Part shown: piece by piece, positions 3,811 through 14,407 of the stretch
Numbering within the stretch: position 1 is the first letter of the stretch
Layout: each line of letters begins with the position of its first letter
Source: the human T2T-CHM13v2.0 reference genome, Homo sapiens
Length of the DNA: 64,000 nucleotides
Direction of reading: 5' to 3'
Assembly: GCA_009914755.4 (NCBI GenBank)
Contig: CP086569.2
Coordinates: forward strand, 480,001 to 544,000
The notes under the pieces: model-generated
What the model was told of the DNA's origin: nothing
Database searches by the model: none
Seen by the model: the letters and a program-made list of their open reading frames with translations, nothing else
Made by a program: the position numbers and the translations under genes

Positions 3811-4039
3811 GGTAACCTGTGTGGGGGGCTCGGGCGCCTGCGCCCCCCTCCTGCGCGCGCGCTCTCCCTTCCAAAAATGGGATCTTTCCCCCTTCGCACC
3901 AAGGTGTACGGACGCCAAACAGTGATGAAATGAGAAGAAAGCCAATTGCCGGCCTGGGGGGTGGGGGAGACACAGCGTCTCTGCGTGCGTCCGCCGCGGA
4001 GCCCGGAGACCAGTAATTGCACCAGACAGGCAGCGCATG

Positions 4040-4110
4040 GGGGGCTGGGCGAGGTCGCCGCGTATAAATAGTGAGATTTCCAATGGAAAGGCGTAAATAA
4101 CAGCGCTGGT
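4040..4110 (+). promoter_or_regulatory. SHOX: Putative SHOX P2 (intragenic, exon-2) core promoter. TATAAATA at 4063-4070 and a CCAAT-like element at 4080-4084. Predicted TSS around 4095-4105, giving a ~100-nt leader to the ATG at 4200.
   Basis: The sequence is gcgTATAAATAgtgagatttCCAATgg, about 135 bp upstream of the ATG. It is established that SHOX has a second promoter inside exon 2. The exact TSS cannot be seen in sequence alone. Confidence 0.55.
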
Positions 4111-4112
4111 GA

Positions 4113-4595
<483 letters not shown>

Positions 4596-5140: not shown

Positions 5141-7919
5141 TGACGGCTTAGGATGTGTGTTTCTGTCTCTGCCTGTCTGCCTTGTATTTACGGTCACCCA
5201 GACGCACAGAGGAGCCGTCTCCACGCGCCTTCCCAGCGCTCAGCGCCTGCCGGGCCCCCGGAGATCACGGGAAGACTCGAGGCTGCGTGGTAGGAGACGG
5301 GAAGGCCCCGGGTCAGCTCGGTTCTGTTTCCTTTAAGGAACCCTTCATTATTATTTCATTGTTTTCCTTTGAACGTCGAGGCTTGATCTTGGCGAAAGCT
5401 GTTGGGTCCATAAAAACCACTCCCGTGAGCGGAGGTGGCCGGGATCTGGATGGGGCGCGAGGGGCCCCGGGGAAGCTGGCGGCTTCGCGGGCGCGTCCTA
5501 AGTCAAGGTTGTCAGAGCGCAGCCGGTTGTGCGCGGCCCGGGGGAGCTCCCCTCTGGCCCTTCCTCCTGAGACCTCAGTGGTGGGTCGTCCCGTGGTGGA
5601 AATCGGGGAGTAAGAGGCTCAGAGAGAGGGGCTGGCCCCGGGGATCTCTGTGCACACACGACAACTGGGCGGCATACATCTTAAGAATAAAATGGGCTGG
5701 CTGTGTCGGGGCACAGCTGGAGACGGCTATGGACGCCTGTTATGTTTTCATTACAAAGACGCAGAGAATCTAGCCTCGGCTTTTGCTGATTCGCAGAGTT
5801 GAGGTGCGAGGGTGAATGCCCCAAAGGTAATTCTTCCTAAGACTCTGGGGCTACCTGCTCTCCGGGGCCCTGCATTTGGGGTGTGGAGTGGCCCCGGGAA
5901 ATAGCCCTTGTATTCGTAGGAGGCACCAGGCAGCTTCCCAAGGCCCTGACTTTGTCGAAGCAGAAAGCTGTGGCTACGGTTTACAAAGCAGTCCCCGGTT
6001 TCTGACCGTCTAAGAGGCAGGAGCCCAGCCTGCCTTTGACAGTGAGAGGAGTTCCTCCCTACACACTGCTGCGGGCACCCGGCACTGTAATTCATACACA
6101 GAGAGTTGGCCTTCCTGGACGCAAGGCTGGGAGCCGCTTGAGGGCCTGCGTGTAATTTAAGAGGGTTCGCAGCGCCCGGCGGCCGCTTCTGTGGGGTTGC
6201 TTTTTGGTTGTCCTTCGCAGACACCGTTTTGCTCCTCTGAACTCTCTCTTCTCCCCCTGGCCGTGGACCCGGGAGAGCAAAGTGTCCTCCAGACCTTTCG
6301 AAAGTGAGAGGAAAATAAAGACCAGGCCAAAGACCCAGGGCCACAGGAGAGGAGACAGAGAGTCCCCGTTACATTTTCCCCTTGGCTGGGTGCAGAAAGA
6401 CCCCCGGGCCAGGACTGCCACCCAGGCTACTATTTATTCATCAGATCCAAGTTAAATCGAGGTTGGAGGGCAGGGGAGAGTCTGAGGTTACCGTGGAAGC
6501 CTGGAGTTTTTGGGAACAGCGTGTCCCCGCCGAGCCTGGGAGCCCGTGGGTTCTGCAAAGCCTGCGGGTGTTTGAGGACTTTGAAGACCAGTTTGTCAGT
6601 TGGGCTCAATTCCTGGGGTTCAGACTTAGAGAAATGAAGGAGGGAGAGCTGGGGTCGTCTCCAGGAAACGATTCACTTGGGGAGAAGGAATGGAGTGTTC
6701 TTGCAGGCACGTGTCTGATAGGAGGTGAAACAGAATGTGAAATCCACGTTGGAGTAAGCGTCCAGCGCTGAATGTAGCTCGGGGTGGGGTGGGAGGGCCC
6801 TGGTGTGGATCGTGGAAGGAAGAAAGACAGAACAGGGTGCTAGTATTTACCCCGTTCCCTGTAGACACCCTGGATTTGTCAGCTTTGCAAGCTTCTTGGT
6901 TGCAGCGGCCTTGCCTGTGCCCCTTTGAGACTGTTTCCAGACTAAACTTCCAAATGTCAGCCCCTTACCCTTGACAGCAAGGGACATCTCATTAGGGCAT
7001 CGCGTGCTTCTCATCTGTGCTCAGCAGGCCCGAGATAGGAACAGAGGGGCGTTGGAGATGCCACTTCCACCAGCCCTGGGTTGAAGGGGAGCGAGGGAGA
7101 CACCTTTTACTTAAACCCCTGAGCTTGGTCAGAGAGGCTGAATGTCTAAAATGAGGAAGAAAAGGTTTTTCACCTGGAAACGCTTGAGGGCTGAGTCTTC
7201 TGCCCTTCTGACTCCCCCAGCAAATACAGACAGGTCACCAACTACTGGAGATGAGAAAGTGCCATTTTTGGCACACTCTGGTGGGGTAGGTGCCCGACCG
7301 CGTGTGAAAAAGTGGGAAGGAGAGATTTCTGCGCACGCGGTTCAGCCCCCAGGCGCGGTGGCGCATTCAGGTACTCAGACGCGGTTCTGCTGTTCTGCTG
7401 AGAAACAGGCTTCGGGTAGGGGCTCCTAGCTCCGCCAGATCGCGGAGGGACCCCCAGCCCTCCTGCGCTGCAGCGGTGGGGATAGCGTCTCTCCGTAGGC
7501 CTAGAATCTGCAACCCGCCCCGGGTCCTCCCCGTGTCCTTCCCGGGCGTCCCGCCGGGGATCCCACAGTTGGCAGCTCTTCCTCAAATTCTTTCCCTTAA
7601 AAATAGGATTTGACACCCCACTCTCCTTAAAAAAAAAAATAAGAAAAAAAGGTTAGGTTATGTCAACAGAGGTGAAGTGGATAATTGAGGAAACGATTCT
7701 GAGATGAGGCCAAGAAAACAACGCTCGTGCAAAGCCCAGGTTTTTGGGAAAGCAGCGAGTATCCTCCTCGGCTTTTGCCTTATGGACCCCACGCAGTTTT
7801 TGCGTCAAAGCGCATTGGTTTTCGAGGGCCCCCTTTCCACCGCGGGATGCACGAAGGGGTTCGCCACGTTGCGCAAAACCTCCCCGGCCTCAGCCCTGTG
7901 CCCTCCGCTCCCCACGCAG

Positions 7920-8128
7920 GGATTTATGAATGCAAAGAGAAGCGCGAGGACGTGAAGTCGGAGGACGAGGACGGGCAGACCAAGCTGAAACAGAGGCGCA
8001 GCCGCACCAACTTCACGCTGGAGCAGCTGAACGAGCTCGAGCGACTCTTCGACGAGACCCATTACCCCGACGCCTTCATGCGCGAGGAGCTCAGCCAGCG
8101 CCTGGGGCTCTCCGAGGCGCGCGTGCAG
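7920..8128 (+). CDS. SHOX: SHOX exon 3 (209 nt). Encodes (G)[69 protein letters not shown], i.e. homeodomain helices 1-2. Acceptor cccacgcag|gg, donor cag|gtaggaac.
   Basis: The peptide appears in ORF 7727..8479. The homeodomain signature is QRRSRTNFT...LERLF. The acceptor AG is at 7918-7919 and the donor GT at 8129-8130. Frame is continuous from exon 2. Confidence 0.95.
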
Positions 8129-8329
8129 GTAGGAACCCGGGGGCGGGGGCGGGGGGCCCGGAGCCATCGCCTGGTCCTCGGGAGCGCACAGCACGCGTAC
8201 AGCCACCTGCGCCCGGGCCGCCGCCGTCCCCTTCCCGGAGCGCGGGGAGGTTGGGTGAGGGACGGGCTGCGGTTCCTGGACTTTTGGAGACGCCTGAGGC
8301 CTGTAGGATGGGTTCATTGCGTTTGTTTT

Positions 8330-10170
8330 TCACCAACAGCAAACAAATATATATACATATATATTATACAAATAACAAATAAATATATATGTTATACAGA
8401 TGGGTATATCGTATATATTATAGATATTTGTTCGTCCTTGGTGCAAAGACACCCGGTGAACCCATATATTGGCTCCTGACTGCCTTCGGTTCCCCTGGGA
8501 TTGGTTATAGGGGCAACACATGCAAACAAAACTTTCCCTGGATTATACTTAGGAGACGAAGCTACAGATGCGTTTGATCCAGAGTGTTTTACAAGATTTT
8601 TCATTTAAAAAAAAATGTGTCTTTTGGCCCCTGATTCCCCTCCGTCTTCCCGTGTGGCTGCATTGAAAAGGTTTCCTTAGGATGAAAGGAGAGGGGTGTC
8701 CTCTGTCCCTAGGTGGAGAGAAACAGGGTCTTCTCTTTCCTCCGTTTTTTCACCTACCGTTTCTATCTCCCTCCTCCCCTCTCCAGCCCTGTCCTCTGCT
8801 ACAAACCACCCCCTCCTCCCTCCGGCTGTGGGGAGCGCAGGAGCACGTTGGGCATCTGGATGAGCGGAGACTATTAGCGGGGCACGGGGGCTCCCCGAGG
8901 AGCGCGCGAATTCACGCTGCCCCATGAGACCAGGCACCGGGGGGCGGAGGGGCCTTGGGTGTCCGCAGAGGGACGGGCGGGCAGAGCCTTCCTCCGCATT
9001 CTAAACATTCACTTAAAGGTATGAGTTTATTTCAGGGGTGCTGCTGGGAGAGCCTCCAAATGGCTTCTTCCAGCCCCTGCCTGACAGTTCAGCTCCCCTG
9101 GAAGGTCAACTCCTCTAGTCCTTTCTCCTGGTTCTGGGCAGGACAGAAGTGGGGGGAGGGAGAGAGAGAGAGAGAGAGAGAGAGACGGTCAGGATCCCCG
9201 GACCCTGGGGAACCCGTCAAAAATAAATGAAATTAAGATTGCCGACCAGAGAGAGAACCGTGACAAAGCAAACGGCGTTCAAAGCAAAGAGACGAACTGA
9301 AAGCCCGTTCCCGTAGGACTGGTTATGAGGTCAACACATTCAAACACAGCTTGCTCTGGATTTTGCTGAGCAGAGGAAGATACAGATGCATTTGATCCAA
9401 AGTGTGTTACATCTTTCATTATATGTGTGTCTATATATATAAACATATATAAATATATAAACATACATAAATGTATGTAAATATATATAATCTATATACA
9501 TATATAAATATATAAACACATATATAATATATAAATCTATAAACATATATAATATATAAACATAAATATATAAACATATATAATATATAAATATATTAAC
9601 ATATATAAAATATGTATAAATATATATAAACATATAAACATATATAAATATATAAACATATAAATATATAAACATATATAAATATATACAAACATATTGT
9701 ATATATATAAATATATATAAAAACATATATATACATATAAAAATATATATAAACATATATACATATAAAGAAATATATATAAACATATATACATATAAAT
9801 ATACATATATAAACATATATATACATAAAATATATATAAACATATATACATATAAAAATATATATATATTAACATATATATACATATAAAAATATATATA
9901 TTAACATATATATACATATAAAAATATATATATATTTTTGGCCCCTGATTCCCTTCGGTTCCTGTGGGATGGGTGATTGAGTCAACACATTCAAACACAA
10001 CTTTTCCATCGATGTTGCTTAGGAGATGAGGATACAGATGCGTTTGATGGAGAGGGTTTTACAAGCTCTTTCATTTAAATATATATATATATATATATAT
10101 ATTTTTTGGCTCCTGATTCTCTTCCGTCTTCCCATGTGGCTGCATTTTAAAAGGCTTCCCTAAGATCGTT
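8330..10170. repeat. Triplicated intron-3 segment. Each unit is a TA-rich microsatellite/minisatellite plus an approximately 180-bp unique part (ggcccctgattccc...gatacagatgcgtttgatccagagtgttttacaag...ttcatttaaa). The TA-rich arrays are at about 8340-8440, 9415-9940 and 10081-10102.
   Basis: The unique parts at 8440-8690, 9300-9420 and 9940-10170 are clearly homologous. The 9415-9940 block is a catatataaatatataaa-type array of about 520 bp. Confidence 0.85.
9158..9186. repeat. (GA)n microsatellite, about 14 units.
   Basis: gggagagagagagagagagagagagagagac. Confidence 0.95.
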
Positions 10171-12851
10171 ACGATTAAATCAACCCTCCCCAGGCATCTT
10201 TACCGAGGGCTGTGGTCCCCAAAGCGATACAGCCCAGGAGGGAGAGAGGCTTTGGTGACTTGGAGGAAGGACTGTGTCCCTCCTTAGGGCGTCTGTGGCC
10301 TCAGTGAGGGAAGGAAGCTGCATCAGACAGGGGTTTCCTCGCTGTCCACCCCTCTGGCAGAAGATGGATTGGGCTGCCCCGTATAAATTAATGAAAAGAT
10401 TAAAGTTTCGCTAAAGGGGACATCGAGTTTATGTGTCATCTCCTGGTGTCTGTGTGCCTGGGATCTGCAATATATCCCAGCCCTTGATGTACTGTTTCTA
10501 TAAAAATAAATTACTTGTAATTTAATTCCACACTATTTCTTTCCGTAGTCTATTACCGACGAGAGCACGTTAGTTCAGCTGCGGAAAATTGGTTGTGGGG
10601 TGTGTGCGGACCCCGAGAACGCCCTAAAATAAAGACAAATCGGGGACAAGCTGGGGGTTATCGATTGCAGGGGTCGCATGAAAATTTAACGACGGTAAAT
10701 AATAATAAAAACAAACATGGGAATGCAATAAAAGACATAATTCTCCATCGCCGCGGGGGGAAAGGATCCTATAGTAAAGGCGAGTGCGCTTTGAGGGGTC
10801 ATAAAAATCAATTAGTTCCAACACCCACGTCCCGCGTTGAGGGGACGGGGACGAGCAGGGACAGAAAAAGAAACCATATTTGAATCCCATCTCTCTGTGA
10901 ATTCTTGGGTCACATGCGTCTCAGTACAGCCCGTCCCGTGCTGTGACCGGATAGAGTTTCAATTTACTGTGGAAATTTGCTGTAAATAAATTGAGCATCC
11001 GATAGAAGCTGTTGCTGATTAACCTTTTATTTTTAGCGTGGCCCTGCAAAGTCGTATCACCCAGCTGTCAGGCTTCTAATCGAAAGTTATGAGACCACGG
11101 TGAGGGGCAGGCGGTAATTTAATTACAACAAATATCTTTGGGTTTATGGCGCAGAGCTAAATTAAATGTCATTATTCACTGTCTGTAATGGAAATCAAAA
11201 GGAAATCGCATTACGGCATTTGGGAAAGAAAGCGGGGAGTGCTCTTTAATGAAGAAATAACTGTCTTAAGCAGTGTCACACACTTCACTTACCATATTCG
11301 GGCCTAATTGGAATGGATCGTGAATCACTCCAAGACTGATTTATTAGCGCTTCACGCAGCGGCTAATTCATCACTTGTATTCTTCATCATTTTTTTTTTT
11401 CCTCTCGCCGTGTTGAAGGGAGAGTGAATGAGGCTTTCCACGTTTCAGGAGGATTTTCTTTTTTGAAAAATGCCCTTCCAGAGGCTTTTGGGTGGCTGGC
11501 TTGCTTTCTGGGCCCTGGAGGAGACAGGCGGAGAGTCCAGGTGGGCATGGAGAGGCACAGTGGCAGGTCACCTGGATGGTCAGTGGAGGTGGAGGTCTGA
11601 AGGCGCCAGCTTTGGAAATTATTGGTGAATTTCGATGTCAGCACCAGGCAGGGGCCTTTTTGGCGGGGGTGTGAGGGAGGATGACTTTGCTGGGAAACAG
11701 GATCAGGTTCTCCAGGCGCACTGCAGCCCGGTAGGACCCACTTTGGAAATGAAAAGCCAGTTCCGAAAGCTGGGCTGGAAGCTTCCGTGTTGGGTTCAAG
11801 AGCAAGTTCACGTTGCGCTGTGTAGACTCCTGGCTGCTCCCAAACTCTGAGGGTTTTCTGAGGTTCCCTTCATAGGGGCACCGGCCCTGGGCCATGCACA
11901 GTGCGTAAGGGTGGCTGTGGGCCGAGGGACCCAGCACGTGTTTTGCCCACAACAGCCGGAGTGACTGGTTCACTCACCGCCTTGGCGGAGGACGCCTGTT
12001 CTCTGGACGAATCATTTCTCTTGGGTGGTGACTGCCTTGTGGGTCAAGGTGCAGGTTTTCTGCCACAGAAAACCTGTTAGGAGGAATTAAGCGACTAAGA
12101 CTGTCAGGGAGGTGGTGGTGGGGGAGAGGAGGGGGTGGTGTCCAGATTACCAGGCATAGGCTAAACTGCCTGCACTCTCCAGCTGGTCTGTCTGTGGAGG
12201 AGGGGATTGTCAATACTGGGAGAGCAGAGGAGGCTCGTAGGAGGTGAGAGGGGGTGGAATTTGCATGCAAATCTTCACATGAGGCCTGTGTGAATTTCTC
12301 CAGCCTCCTGAGGGTCCCCTGCGCTATTGCACTCAACTTCTTGATAGTTTACCCCAAGACTCAGAAGTCCTTAGAGGGGCAGAATGCCCCCACCACAAAG
12401 CCTGCTATCCTTGGGCGTCCTCAGGACCCTTGGTCATGAATGGGACCCTTTCATGTATGGGGACCCTTGGTAATATGAATGGGACGCCTTCAGCTCCCCA
12501 GGGCTTCCGAGGAGGCCGAGAAGGGCAAAGACACTTCCGAGGAGGCCGAGAAGGGCAAAGACATTTTCTGGGCTTGGTGTGTCAAGAGCTAGATTGGAGA
12601 AGGGGCTGGATTTGGAACTCTTTAGCCATCAGCTCACCCTCTCCGTTTGTGGCTAAAGTCTGAAGGTGGAAACTTCGGTTCTCCTACAGGGTCTACAGGA
12701 GTTGGGGGGCGGGGCGCCCACACAGAACGCTGGAAAGTTCGACAGTCCACTTCCACTGGCTCGGAACTCACTTTTTCACCTTAAGTTCATCAGCGGTAAC
12801 GCATAGGTCTCACTTAGGCAGGGCACGGATGATTTAACAATTTCTACTTCT

Positions 12852-14106
<1,255 letters not shown>

Positions 14107-14131: not shown

Positions 14132-14220
14132 GCGTCATCTTGGGCACAGCCAACCACCTAGACGCCTGCCGAGTGGCACCCTACGTCAACATGGGAGCCT
14201 TACGGATGCCTTTCCAACAG
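14132..14220 (+). CDS. SHOX: SHOX exon 5 (89 nt). Encodes (G)[29 protein letters not shown]. Acceptor ggacacag|gc, donor caacag|gtagct.
   Basis: Reading by eye from 14132, gc completes the Gly codon and then gtc atc ttg ggc follows. The exon ends on a full codon (phase 0) before gtagctcac. The frame is continuous into exon 6a and exon 6b. Confidence 0.92.
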
Positions 14221-14407
14221 GTAGCTCACTTTTTCTTCCTCTGAAGATCCCTAGGGACCTGCTGCTCCCTTCCCCTTTCCCCTATTTGCTGCCGCATCCT
14301 GACACTCCTAGTCCCTCCCTGCCCCTGCAGACTTCTCAGCTGGCCCTTAGAAAAAAAGCCTCTTTTCCGAGGAGGCATTTACAGGCACCTTGGCACCTAT
14401 GAAATCA

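What the first reader, a model, noticed from the sequence alone, without database searches (positions are those of the whole stretch)
10170..11400. Repeat-free, CpG-retaining, TAAT-rich block in intron 3: candidate conserved cis-regulatory element
Between the TA-rich arrays and the next Alus lies about 1.2 kb of unique sequence. It is AT-moderate yet keeps many CpGs outside an island context (atcgag, ccgacgag, cgattgc, aacgacgg, tcgccgcgggggg, gcgagtgcgc, ccgcgttg). It is packed with homeodomain-type cores and developmental-TF-like motifs (ctaattgg, gctaattca, taatttaattac, attaaatgtcattattcac, tgtaatggaaatcaaaagg, ttaatgaag). This composition is what deeply conserved non-coding elements inside developmental transcription-factor genes look like. 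SHOX is known to be regulated by long-range CNE enhancers. An intragenic element in intron 3 would be a plausible autoregulatory or limb/pharyngeal enhancer and is less well characterised than the flanking CNEs.
Basis: inference. Interest (0 to 1): 0.6.

Follow-up and report, generated by a model that had tools for sequence, protein, structure and literature searches.

The report
Ancient SHOX intron-3 enhancer-like element, human-eroded
The flagged block in intron 3 of the short-stature gene SHOX holds two non-coding segments conserved from sharks and bony fish to humans. They were already catalogued but never tested, and the CpGs that drew attention are mostly recent gains on the human lineage rather than retained ancestral sites.

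Summary
The window is a primate SHOX locus, and 10170-11400 lies in intron 3. In detail: unique sequence, CpG observed/expected 0.94 at 43% GC, and TAAT/ATTA cores about twice the shuffle expectation.

The region has three parts:
- Block A (10367-10575) and block B (10930-11380) lie in intron 3 of marsupial, chicken, turtle, gecko, coelacanth and bowfin SHOX.
- A 170-bp core of block B is also present, inverted, in elephant shark.
- The spacer between the blocks (10576-10929) is not conserved.

Block B is 98.9% identical between Tasmanian devil and turtle, which is higher than the homeobox exon. It shows no coding periodicity, no ORF, no Rfam match and no unusual RNA folding. The best reading is a transcription-factor-bound cis-regulatory module. 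It carries an invariant paired-like P3 palindrome, a MEIS/E-box site and a PBX-HOX-like site.

The element is not new. Kenyon et al. 2011 list two CONDOR CNEs at this place, untested.

The CpG reasoning is wrong. Only 2 of 25 human CpGs in the blocks are ancestral. The human lineage carries 96 private substitutions against 0 in devil, biased AT→GC, which fits PAR1 biased gene conversion plus weakened constraint.

The parts
10367..10575 (.). Block A: conserved non-coding block, present from bony fish to human. Conservation among amniotes continues more weakly to about 10617. It probably contains CONDOR CRCNE00011115.
   Evidence: BLAST gives 78-86% identity to devil, chicken, turtle and coelacanth, and 67% to bowfin, always within intron 3. 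In the alignment, 97 of 200 ungapped columns are invariant across 7 species. It was not found in elephant shark.
10576..10929 (.). Non-conserved spacer. Its length is roughly kept across species (268-392 bp) but its sequence is not.
   Evidence: It is unalignable in the MAFFT alignment. CpG o/e is 1.03 in human, 0.0 in devil, 0.16 in turtle and 0.21 in coelacanth. Only 200-bp windows starting at 10732-10774 marginally meet GC >= 0.5 and o/e >= 0.6.
10930..11380 (.). Block B: the main conserved non-coding element, near-ultraconserved outside eutherians. It probably contains CONDOR CRCNE00011091.
   Evidence: Pairwise identities: devil-turtle 98.9%, devil-chicken 96.7%, turtle-coelacanth 88.2%, turtle-bowfin 80.0%, human-devil 85.8%. 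273 columns are invariant in 8 vertebrate sequences. Variable columns show no codon periodicity (58/60/60), whereas exon 3 gives 14/2/67.
11018..11199 (.). Gnathostome core of block B, the part still recognisable in elephant shark. There it lies in intron 3 in inverted orientation.
   Evidence: nhmmer matches block-B profile positions 89-270 to L007 14051-13881 on the minus strand, E = 3.6e-19. BLAST from six species hits the same place. In L007 the match lies on the same gap-free stretch as exon 4: the Ns are at 13497-13521 and 22992 only, and the exons are located. Identity is about 71-74% over 136 columns.
11062..11070 (.). E-box CAGCTG (11062-11067) overlapping a MEIS/TGIF-type site CTGTCA (11065-11070).
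   Evidence: CCAGCTGTCA is invariant in all 8 bony-vertebrate sequences, and shark keeps CTGTCA. The motif assignment rests on established consensus knowledge and is an inference.
11115..11125 (.). P3 palindrome TAAT-N3-ATTA, a dimer site for paired-like homeodomain proteins and a candidate SHOX autoregulatory site.
   Evidence: There are only 2 matches in the 64-kb window, against 0.28 expected. Both half-sites are invariant in 8 sequences, and the human lineage changed only the spacer (C to T). SHOX prefers P2/P3 palindromes (PMC4971310).
11157..11184 (.). Longest run identical in all bony vertebrates sampled, human included (28 bp): CTAAATTAAATGTCATTATTCACTGTCT.
   Evidence: An exact-match scan of metagenome contigs with this run plus the preceding G (29 nt) returned one vertebrate SHOX fragment, L010.
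11246..11266 (.). Second invariant run (21 bp): TTAATGAAGAAATAACTGTCT.
11337..11344 (.). PBX-HOX-like site TGATTTAT.
   Evidence: TGATTTATTA is invariant in all 8 sequences. The motif assignment is an inference from the known PBX-HOX consensus TGATNNAT. HOX, PBX and MEIS sites are also predicted in five of the six characterised SHOX enhancers (PMC3447975).
10981..10990 (.). Forkhead-like site TGTAAATAAA.
   Evidence: It is conserved in 7 of 8 sequences; bowfin has TGTAAGTAAA. The motif assignment is an inference.

Best explanation
The region is an ancient intragenic cis-regulatory module of SHOX. It consists of two conserved DNA blocks about 350 bp apart.

Inferred mechanism: the blocks act at the DNA level as a platform for homeodomain-class and partner transcription factors. 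Candidate inputs are:
- a paired-like dimer on the P3 palindrome, possibly SHOX itself;
- MEIS/TALE and bHLH factors on CAGCTGTCA;
- PBX-HOX on TGATTTAT;
- further TAAT cores and a Forkhead-like site.
The module would tune SHOX transcription independently of orientation.

The element dates at least to the common ancestor of jawed vertebrates. It is specific to SHOX and has no detectable counterpart in SHOX2.

On the lineage to humans, where SHOX lies in pseudoautosomal region 1, the element has been heavily rewritten. The changes are biased AT to GC, consistent with GC-biased gene conversion, and include additional changes that suggest weakened constraint. These changes created most of its CpGs. 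The TAAT cores themselves were spared.

Shown here: position, depth and strength of conservation, absence of coding or RNA-structure signals, motif invariance, and the lineage-specific substitution pattern. Inferred: factor binding, enhancer activity, target gene and tissues.
For: - Syntenic conservation in intron 3 of seven SHOX loci, plus a shark core.
- Block B is more conserved than the homeobox exon: devil-turtle 98.9% against 91.1%.
- There is no codon periodicity, no ORF of 40 aa or more across the core at 11050-11370, no Rfam match at E <= 1, and RNA folding z-scores of -0.57 and +1.07.
- The shark core is inverted relative to exon 4 on one gap-free stretch. This fits an orientation-independent DNA element.
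- TAAT/ATTA cores are enriched. Nine cores invariant in the 7 non-human species are all kept in human, and 0 of 31 human changes at otherwise invariant columns hit them (Fisher P = 0.035).
- The P3 palindrome is rare in the window and invariant, and SHOX binds P2/P3 sites (PMC4971310).
- HOX/PBX/MEIS site grammar is shared with the characterised SHOX enhancers (PMC3447975).
- Relative-rate test, human against devil with turtle as outgroup: 62 vs 0 in block B and 34 vs 0 in block A.
- Human changes: W>S 53, S>W 19 (binomial P = 8e-5).
- Exon 3 GC3 is 0.89 in human and 0.56 in devil. At synonymous third positions, 14 of 16 W sites changed to S in human.
- PAR1 biased gene conversion is about twice the autosomal level and strongest at CpG sites (PMC9575207).
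Against: - There is no chromatin, reporter or binding data for this element, either in these tools or in the papers searched.
- Motif assignments are consensus matches only.
- The Fisher test for sparing of TAAT cores is weak (P = 0.035).
- The shark inversion rests on a single assembly.
- Human-lineage changes also include 38 that are not W>S. The human copy may therefore be partly decaying rather than fully functional.
- Only one eutherian sequence (the window) was available, so the timing of the acceleration is unknown.
Confidence: 0.6

Rival explanations
1. The element is a conserved DNA-level element of another kind: a silencer, a Polycomb-recruiting or non-methylated region, or an insulator or architectural site inside the SHOX gene body, rather than a classical activating enhancer.
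For: The sequence evidence (conservation, orientation independence, homeodomain sites) does not separate activation from repression. The unconstrained human spacer has CpG o/e 1.03, against 0.48 in the rest of intron 3. That would fit a germline-unmethylated patch.
Against: CpG richness is not conserved: devil has 0 CpGs in its spacer, and turtle and coelacanth have o/e 0.16-0.21. A CpG-dependent function therefore cannot be the conserved one. No CTCF-type motif was examined or noticed. The site grammar resembles the known SHOX enhancers.
Confidence: 0.15
2. The human copy is a decaying relic. The ancestral function was lost or much reduced on the eutherian or primate lineage, and biased gene conversion and mutation in PAR1 are now eroding it.
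For: There are 96 human-private changes against 0 in devil. Of these, 38 are not W>S and so are not favoured by biased gene conversion. The ratio of CNE rate to synonymous rate is roughly 0.5 on the human lineage and below 0.02 on the devil lineage. Rodents have no SHOX gene (PMC3123344).
Against: The human blocks still align at 85% to marsupial, while the flanks and spacer are unalignable. The W>S rate in the CNE is about 15% of the synonymous W>S rate (0.129 vs 0.88). All nine invariant TAAT cores, the P3 half-sites, and 28-bp and 21-bp exact runs are retained.
Confidence: 0.15
3. The element has an RNA-level function: an intronic splicing regulator, an unannotated alternative exon, or a conserved non-coding RNA or miRNA host.
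For: It lies in an intron of a gene with known alternative splicing (my own recollection; not checked here). Block A holds a conserved TATAAAAATA-like string.
Against: There is no Rfam match, no excess folding stability on either strand, no ORF and no 3-periodicity. The element is more than 2 kb from either exon. The core is inverted in elephant shark relative to the transcription unit, which would destroy a strand-specific RNA signal.
Confidence: 0.05
4. The element is an orphan CpG island or alternative promoter, as the CpG richness might suggest.
For: CpG o/e is 0.94-0.97 across the block. A marginal CGI-like stretch starts at 10732-10774.
Against: GC is 43%, below the CGI criterion. The CpGs are almost all derived on the human lineage or lie in the non-conserved spacer. 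The orthologous regions in devil, turtle and coelacanth have CpG o/e 0.14-0.27.
Confidence: 0.05

Closest known systems
CONDOR CNEs CRCNE00011115 (GRCh37 chrX:598067-598108) and CRCNE00011091 (598664-598921), listed inside the SHOX gene by Kenyon et al. 2011 (PMC3123344, Table 1)
   Same: They lie within the SHOX transcription unit between exons 3 and 4. There are two elements about 600 bp apart, matching the block A / block B spacing. They were defined by human-dog-opossum-Fugu alignment. They are not in the paper's list of CNEs duplicated at SHOX2, which agrees with my negative SHOX2 search.
   Different: I could only match coordinates approximately, within about 90-170 bp. The offset relies on my recollection of the GRCh37 start-codon and exon positions, and a TA-array length difference would have to explain it. 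The CONDOR entries cover only 42 + 258 bp, while the amniote-conserved blocks are 209 + 451 bp. The paper did not test these two elements and does not mention the human-lineage acceleration.
Characterised SHOX limb enhancers (CNE-5, CNE-3, CNE-2 upstream; CNE4, CNE5, ECR1/CNE7, CNE9 downstream)
   Same: They are deeply conserved non-coding blocks in the SHOX regulatory landscape with predicted HOX/PBX/MEIS homeodomain site clusters (PMC3447975; PMC4668379).
   Different: Those are intergenic, tens to hundreds of kb away, and have reporter, 4C and patient-deletion evidence. This element is intragenic (intron 3) and has none of that evidence.
GC-biased-gene-conversion-driven accelerated regions (such as many HARs), and PAR genes such as mouse Fxy (from my own knowledge, not checked here)
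   Same: Sequence that is otherwise strongly conserved shows a burst of AT-to-GC-biased substitutions in a lineage where it sits in a very high-recombination region. The neighbouring synonymous sites show the same bias.
   Different: HARs are defined on the human branch after the chimpanzee split, and I could only resolve the whole therian-to-human lineage. A substantial minority of the changes here are not W>S.
Ultraconserved elements (at least 200 bp identical in human, mouse and rat)
   Same: Outside eutherians the conservation is of that order: devil-turtle 98.9% over 451 bp, with exact runs of 110-124 bp between devil, turtle and chicken.
   Different: Rodents lack SHOX, and the longest run that includes human is 28 bp. 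It cannot qualify as a UCE.

Membership tests
Vertebrate conserved non-coding element (CONDOR-type) | At least 65% identity over at least 40 nt between human and a fish, at the orthologous locus | tested here: met
   Human-bowfin: 76.8% over 370 bp (block B) and 67.5% over 163 bp (block A), both in intron 3. Human-coelacanth: 79.6% over 398 bp. Fugu itself was not available; it is claimed in PMC3123344.
Vertebrate conserved non-coding element (CONDOR-type) | Non-coding: not an exon or a known RNA gene | tested here: met
   No ORF across the core. Variable columns fall 58/60/60 by position mod 3, against 14/2/67 for exon 3. No Rfam hit. Fold z-scores are -0.57 and +1.07.
Transcriptional enhancer | Drives reporter expression, or carries open-chromatin and H3K27ac marks in the relevant tissue | not testable with these tools
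   No chromatin or reporter data are accessible. No paper in the held library reports a test of this element.
Transcriptional enhancer | Works independently of orientation | tested here: inconclusive
   The elephant-shark core is inverted relative to exons 4-6 on a gap-free stretch. This is suggestive, but it rests on a single assembly and is not a functional test.
SHOX/SHOX2 duplicated CNE (ancient paralogous CNE) | A recognisable copy at the SHOX2 locus | tested here: not met
   There was no nhmmer hit (E <= 1, --max) and no credible BLAST hit for either block in the chicken SHOX2 locus L006, which includes intron 3. The CONDOR IDs are not in the duplicated set of PMC3123344. Only one SHOX2 locus could be fetched.
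Ultraconserved element (Bejerano-type) | At least 200 bp with 100% identity between human, mouse and rat | tested here: not met
   The longest exact run that includes human is 28 bp. Rodents lack SHOX (PMC3123344).
Human accelerated region | Strong conservation in non-human vertebrates | tested here: met
   304 of 451 block-B columns are invariant in the 7 non-human sequences. Devil, chicken and turtle have no singleton changes.
Human accelerated region | Significant excess of substitutions on the human branch since the chimpanzee split | not testable with these tools
   No other eutherian or primate sequence could be fetched because contig look-ups were exhausted. Only the whole therian-to-human lineage was tested: 96 vs 0 against devil.
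CpG island (Gardiner-Garden and Frommer) | At least 200 bp, GC >= 50%, CpG o/e >= 0.6 | tested here: not met
   Across the whole block GC is 0.43-0.45. Only 35 overlapping 200-bp windows, starting at 10732-10774 in the non-conserved spacer, reach the thresholds, and only marginally (GC 0.50-0.51).

The most novel reading that the evidence does not exclude
The burst of 96 substitutions could be concentrated on the primate or human branch rather than spread over all eutherians. It could also have changed the activity of an otherwise frozen SHOX intragenic enhancer. That would make this a HAR-like element inside the main human limb-length gene. It would have been missed by standard screens because SHOX is absent from rodents and PAR1 is poorly handled in alignments. 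A milder version is that biased gene conversion in PAR1 has driven mildly deleterious changes into a 450-million-year-old enhancer, giving a clear non-coding counterpart of the Fxy case.
Probability: 0.12. Interest if true: 0.8.

Novelty: already known. Interest (0 to 1): 0.45.

Why it matters
SHOX dosage controls human stature and forearm and lower-leg length. A sizeable share of Leri-Weill and idiopathic short-stature cases come from loss of conserved enhancers. The SHOX regulatory papers I read analyse seven CNEs upstream and downstream of the gene (PMC4668379, PMC8801136, PMC3447975).

This intragenic element is as conserved as any of those seven. It sits in intron 3, the reported hotspot for partial SHOX deletions and duplications (PMC13436952). 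It has apparently never been tested.

If it is functional, partial rearrangements with intron-3 breakpoints would differ in whether they remove it, and unexplained patients could carry variants in it.

For evolutionary genomics, it is a clean example of a near-ultraconserved element being rewritten where its gene lies in a pseudoautosomal recombination hotspot. It also shows that CpG richness in such a region can reflect biased gene conversion rather than constraint.

Tried and rejected
- Protein-coding exon: rejected. There is no ORF and no codon periodicity.
- Structured RNA or miRNA: rejected. There is no Rfam hit and the folding z-scores are ordinary.
- SHOX2 paralogous copy: not found in chicken SHOX2. 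Look-ups for cow and Hymenochirus SHOX2 returned nothing.
- Retained ancestral CpGs: rejected.
- CpG island: not met.
- A second copy elsewhere in the 64-kb window: none found.
- Attempts to obtain more species. Teleost (Scleropages) and frog (Pelobates) look-ups failed because the exact product was not on record. Exact-match scans of prokaryotic genome contigs and viral contigs for host contamination gave nothing useful. The two Nitrosopumilus hits are chance 21-mers with no extended similarity. The single metagenome scan gave one vertebrate contig of unknown species.
- No other eutherian sequence could be obtained, so the acceleration could not be dated.
- Literature searches for a functional test of the intron-3 element, or for a HAR at SHOX, found none.
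Full report
**Locus and observation**

Exon 2 is at 4200-4480, exon 3 at about 7919-8131, exon 4 at about 13955, exon 5 at about 14135-14223 and exon 6a at 17456-17710. The window also carries 35 Alu matches, so it is a primate SHOX locus and 10170-11400 lies in intron 3.

In 10340-11400 the GC content is 0.431 and CpG o/e is 0.94. The rest of the intron downstream has o/e 0.36 and the window as a whole 0.47. TAAT/ATTA cores number 25, against 13.6 +/- 3.4 in dinucleotide shuffles (P = 0.002), which is more than in any GC-matched window elsewhere. The TA array ends at 9935 and the next Alus start near 12840.

**Getting orthologues**

The tools hold no vertebrate genome browser. I therefore searched the protein collection with SHOX, SHOX2 and a SHOX/SHOX2 consensus query in which differing positions were masked with X. 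The third query brought up non-amniote SHOX proteins. I then fetched the encoding gene ranges, introns included:
- chicken (L001), Tasmanian devil (L003), leatherback turtle (L004), gecko (L005), elephant shark (L007), coelacanth (L008) and bowfin (L009) SHOX;
- chicken SHOX2 (L006).

**Anatomy**

BLAST and a MAFFT alignment show that the flagged region has three parts.
- Block A (10367-10575) is conserved.
- Block B (10930-11380) is conserved.
- The 354-bp spacer between them is unalignable in every comparison.

Both blocks lie in intron 3 in every species. Human block B is 84% identical to chicken over 474 bp, which is higher than coding exon 3 (82.8%). It is 83% identical to devil over 543 bp, 80% to coelacanth over 398 bp and 77% to bowfin over 370 bp.

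A profile search finds a 170-bp core (human about 11018-11199) in elephant-shark intron 3 on the opposite strand, E = 3.6e-19. That match lies on the same gap-free stretch as exon 4, so the inversion is probably real.

Neither block has a match in chicken SHOX2 or elsewhere in the window.

**What the element is not**

- Variable columns of block B fall 58/60/60 by position mod 3, against 14/2/67 for exon 3.
- No ORF of 40 aa or more spans the core.
- Rfam gives nothing at E <= 1.
- RNA folding of the core is ordinary on both strands, with z = -0.57 and +1.07.
- The shark inversion argues against a strand-specific RNA signal.

**What it most likely is**

Outside eutherians, block B is close to ultraconserved. 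Devil-turtle identity is 98.9%, devil-chicken 96.7% and turtle-coelacanth 88.2%. The homeobox exon gives 91.1% for devil-turtle. Exact runs reach 110-124 bp among devil, turtle and chicken.

The invariant stretches are dense in transcription-factor-type sites:
- a P3 palindrome TAAT-N3-ATTA at 11115-11125, one of only two in 64 kb;
- CCAGCTGTCA, an E-box overlapping a MEIS-type CTGTCA;
- TGATTTAT, which is PBX-HOX-like;
- TTTATGG;
- a Forkhead-like TGTAAATAAA;
- nine invariant TAAT/ATTA cores.

SHOX prefers P2/P3 palindromes and binds them as a dimer (PMC4971310). HOX/PBX/MEIS sites are predicted in five of the six characterised SHOX enhancers (PMC3447975).

I therefore favour a transcription-factor-bound, orientation-independent cis-regulatory module of SHOX, with possible autoregulatory input. 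Binding, activity and tissue are inferences and were not testable here.

**Prior knowledge**

Kenyon et al. 2011 (PMC3123344, Table 1) list four CONDOR CNEs inside the SHOX gene. Two of them are CRCNE00011115 (GRCh37 598067-598108) and CRCNE00011091 (598664-598921). They are about 600 bp apart between exons 3 and 4, and were defined on human, dog, opossum and Fugu.

Using my recollection of the GRCh37 start-codon position, these map within about 90-170 bp of blocks A and B. The polymorphic TA arrays upstream could account for the offset. These are the only fish-conserved blocks I find in intron 3, so the identification is very likely.

That paper tested only the downstream Sabherwal CNEs. The two IDs occur in no other paper in the library. 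Reviews and enhancer papers do not mention an intronic element. The element is therefore catalogued but uncharacterised. Intron 3 is otherwise known only as a breakpoint hotspot.

**The CpG twist**

The alignment shows the opposite.
- Of the 25 human CpGs inside blocks A and B, only 2 are shared by at least 4 of 6 other species.
- Fifteen are private to the human lineage, and most are TG or CA in all the other species.
- No ancestral CpG has been lost.
- Orthologous blocks in devil, turtle and coelacanth have CpG o/e of 0.0-0.3.
- Five of the seven quoted CpG strings lie in the non-conserved spacer. The other two are human-derived.

**Human-lineage acceleration**

At columns where the other six species agree, human has 31 (block B) plus 14 (block A) private changes. 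Devil and turtle have none, and chicken has two, both in block A.

Tajima relative-rate tests of human against devil, with turtle as outgroup, give 62 vs 0 (P = 3e-15) for block B and 34 vs 0 for block A. Polarised on devil = turtle = chicken, the human changes are 53 W>S, 19 S>W, 14 S>S and 5 W>W. The binomial test of W>S against S>W gives P = 8e-5, and the implied equilibrium GC is 0.59.

The same bias affects neighbouring synonymous sites:
- Exon 3 GC3 is 0.89 in human and 0.54-0.56 in devil and turtle.
- 14 of 16 ancestral W third positions changed to S in human.

This matches strong GC-biased gene conversion in PAR1 (PMC9575207).

Gecko and chicken also have a GC-rich intron 3. They show intermediate CpG o/e in the element (0.76 and 0.61), and gecko's private changes are W>S-biased. 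So CpG content in this element tracks the local GC regime of each genome.

Biased gene conversion is not the whole story.
- 38 of the human changes are not W>S.
- The ratio of CNE rate to synonymous rate is about 0.5 on the human lineage and below 0.02 on the devil lineage.
- Constraint was therefore weakened or overridden.

It was not abolished.
- The W>S rate in the CNE is about 15% of the synonymous rate.
- Flanks and spacer are unalignable while the blocks still align.
- All nine invariant TAAT cores and both P3 half-sites survive, with 0 of 31 changes in core columns (Fisher P = 0.035).

The CpG o/e of 1.03 in the unconstrained human spacer, against 0.48 in the rest of the intron, suggests germline hypomethylation or a very local conversion hotspot. 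I could not test either.

**Verdict**

The conserved-element interpretation is right and its refutation criterion fails. The CpG-retention argument is wrong, SHOX2 paralogy is not supported, and enhancer function remains an inference.

The element itself is already catalogued. What I found no report of is its near-ultraconservation outside eutherians, the inverted shark core, and the strong AT-to-GC-biased rewriting on the human lineage.

The main limits are that only one eutherian sequence was available and that there are no functional data.

Noticed in passing
window 9307-10106: The TA-rich array is part of a tandem duplication with a period of about 650 bp. The flank at 9307-9450 recurs at 9958-10102 (72-80% identity), and each copy is followed by a (TA)n run (9432-9935 and 10079-10106). 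This polymorphism-prone structure lies immediately upstream of the conserved element, in the intron reported as a SHOX rearrangement hotspot (PMC13436952).
   Followed up: partly
L007 13881-14051 (elephant shark SHOX intron 3): The conserved core of block B is inverted relative to exons 4-6 on a gap-free stretch. Block A was not found in this shark.
   Followed up: partly
L010 (JGI metagenome contig Ga0065711_1083667, 2960 bp): This metagenome contig is vertebrate host DNA. It carries block B (99.6% identical to leatherback turtle in that block, 85% to human) followed by SHOX exons 4-5 about 1.7 kb downstream. Its flanks diverge from both turtle and chicken, so the species is unknown.
   Followed up: partly
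L005 about 7430-7490 (gecko, within block A): Gecko carries a 28-bp tandem duplication of the most conserved part of block A (GT.GTGTTTCTATAAAAATAAATTACT). Like human, it also shows W>S-biased private changes and exon 3 GC3 of 0.92.
   Followed up: no
window 3900-4200 and 18034-18636: Two further human-chicken conserved non-coding stretches were seen. One lies just upstream of the start codon (promoter 2 / 5'UTR; probably CONDOR CRCNE00011090). The others lie in the exon 6a 3'UTR (74-85% identity).
   Followed up: no
window 7919-8131 and 17465-17710 (exons 3 and 6a): Human synonymous sites are almost saturated for GC (exon 3 GC3 = 0.89). 14 of 16 ancestral A/T third positions changed to G/C, while the protein is identical to devil, chicken and turtle except for one devil residue. 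This is a strong signature of biased gene conversion across the gene.
   Followed up: yes
window 12838-13701: Two adjacent Alu elements are reported by TRF as a repeat with a 344-bp period. They lie just upstream of exon 4 and are candidate substrates for the Alu-mediated intron-3 rearrangements described in the literature.
   Followed up: no
L011 4628-4648, L012 1577-1597 (Nitrosopumilus MAGs): These are exact 21-mer matches to the invariant run TTAATGAAGAAATAACTGTCT in AT-rich archaeal genomes. There is no extended similarity, so they are chance matches.
   Followed up: yes
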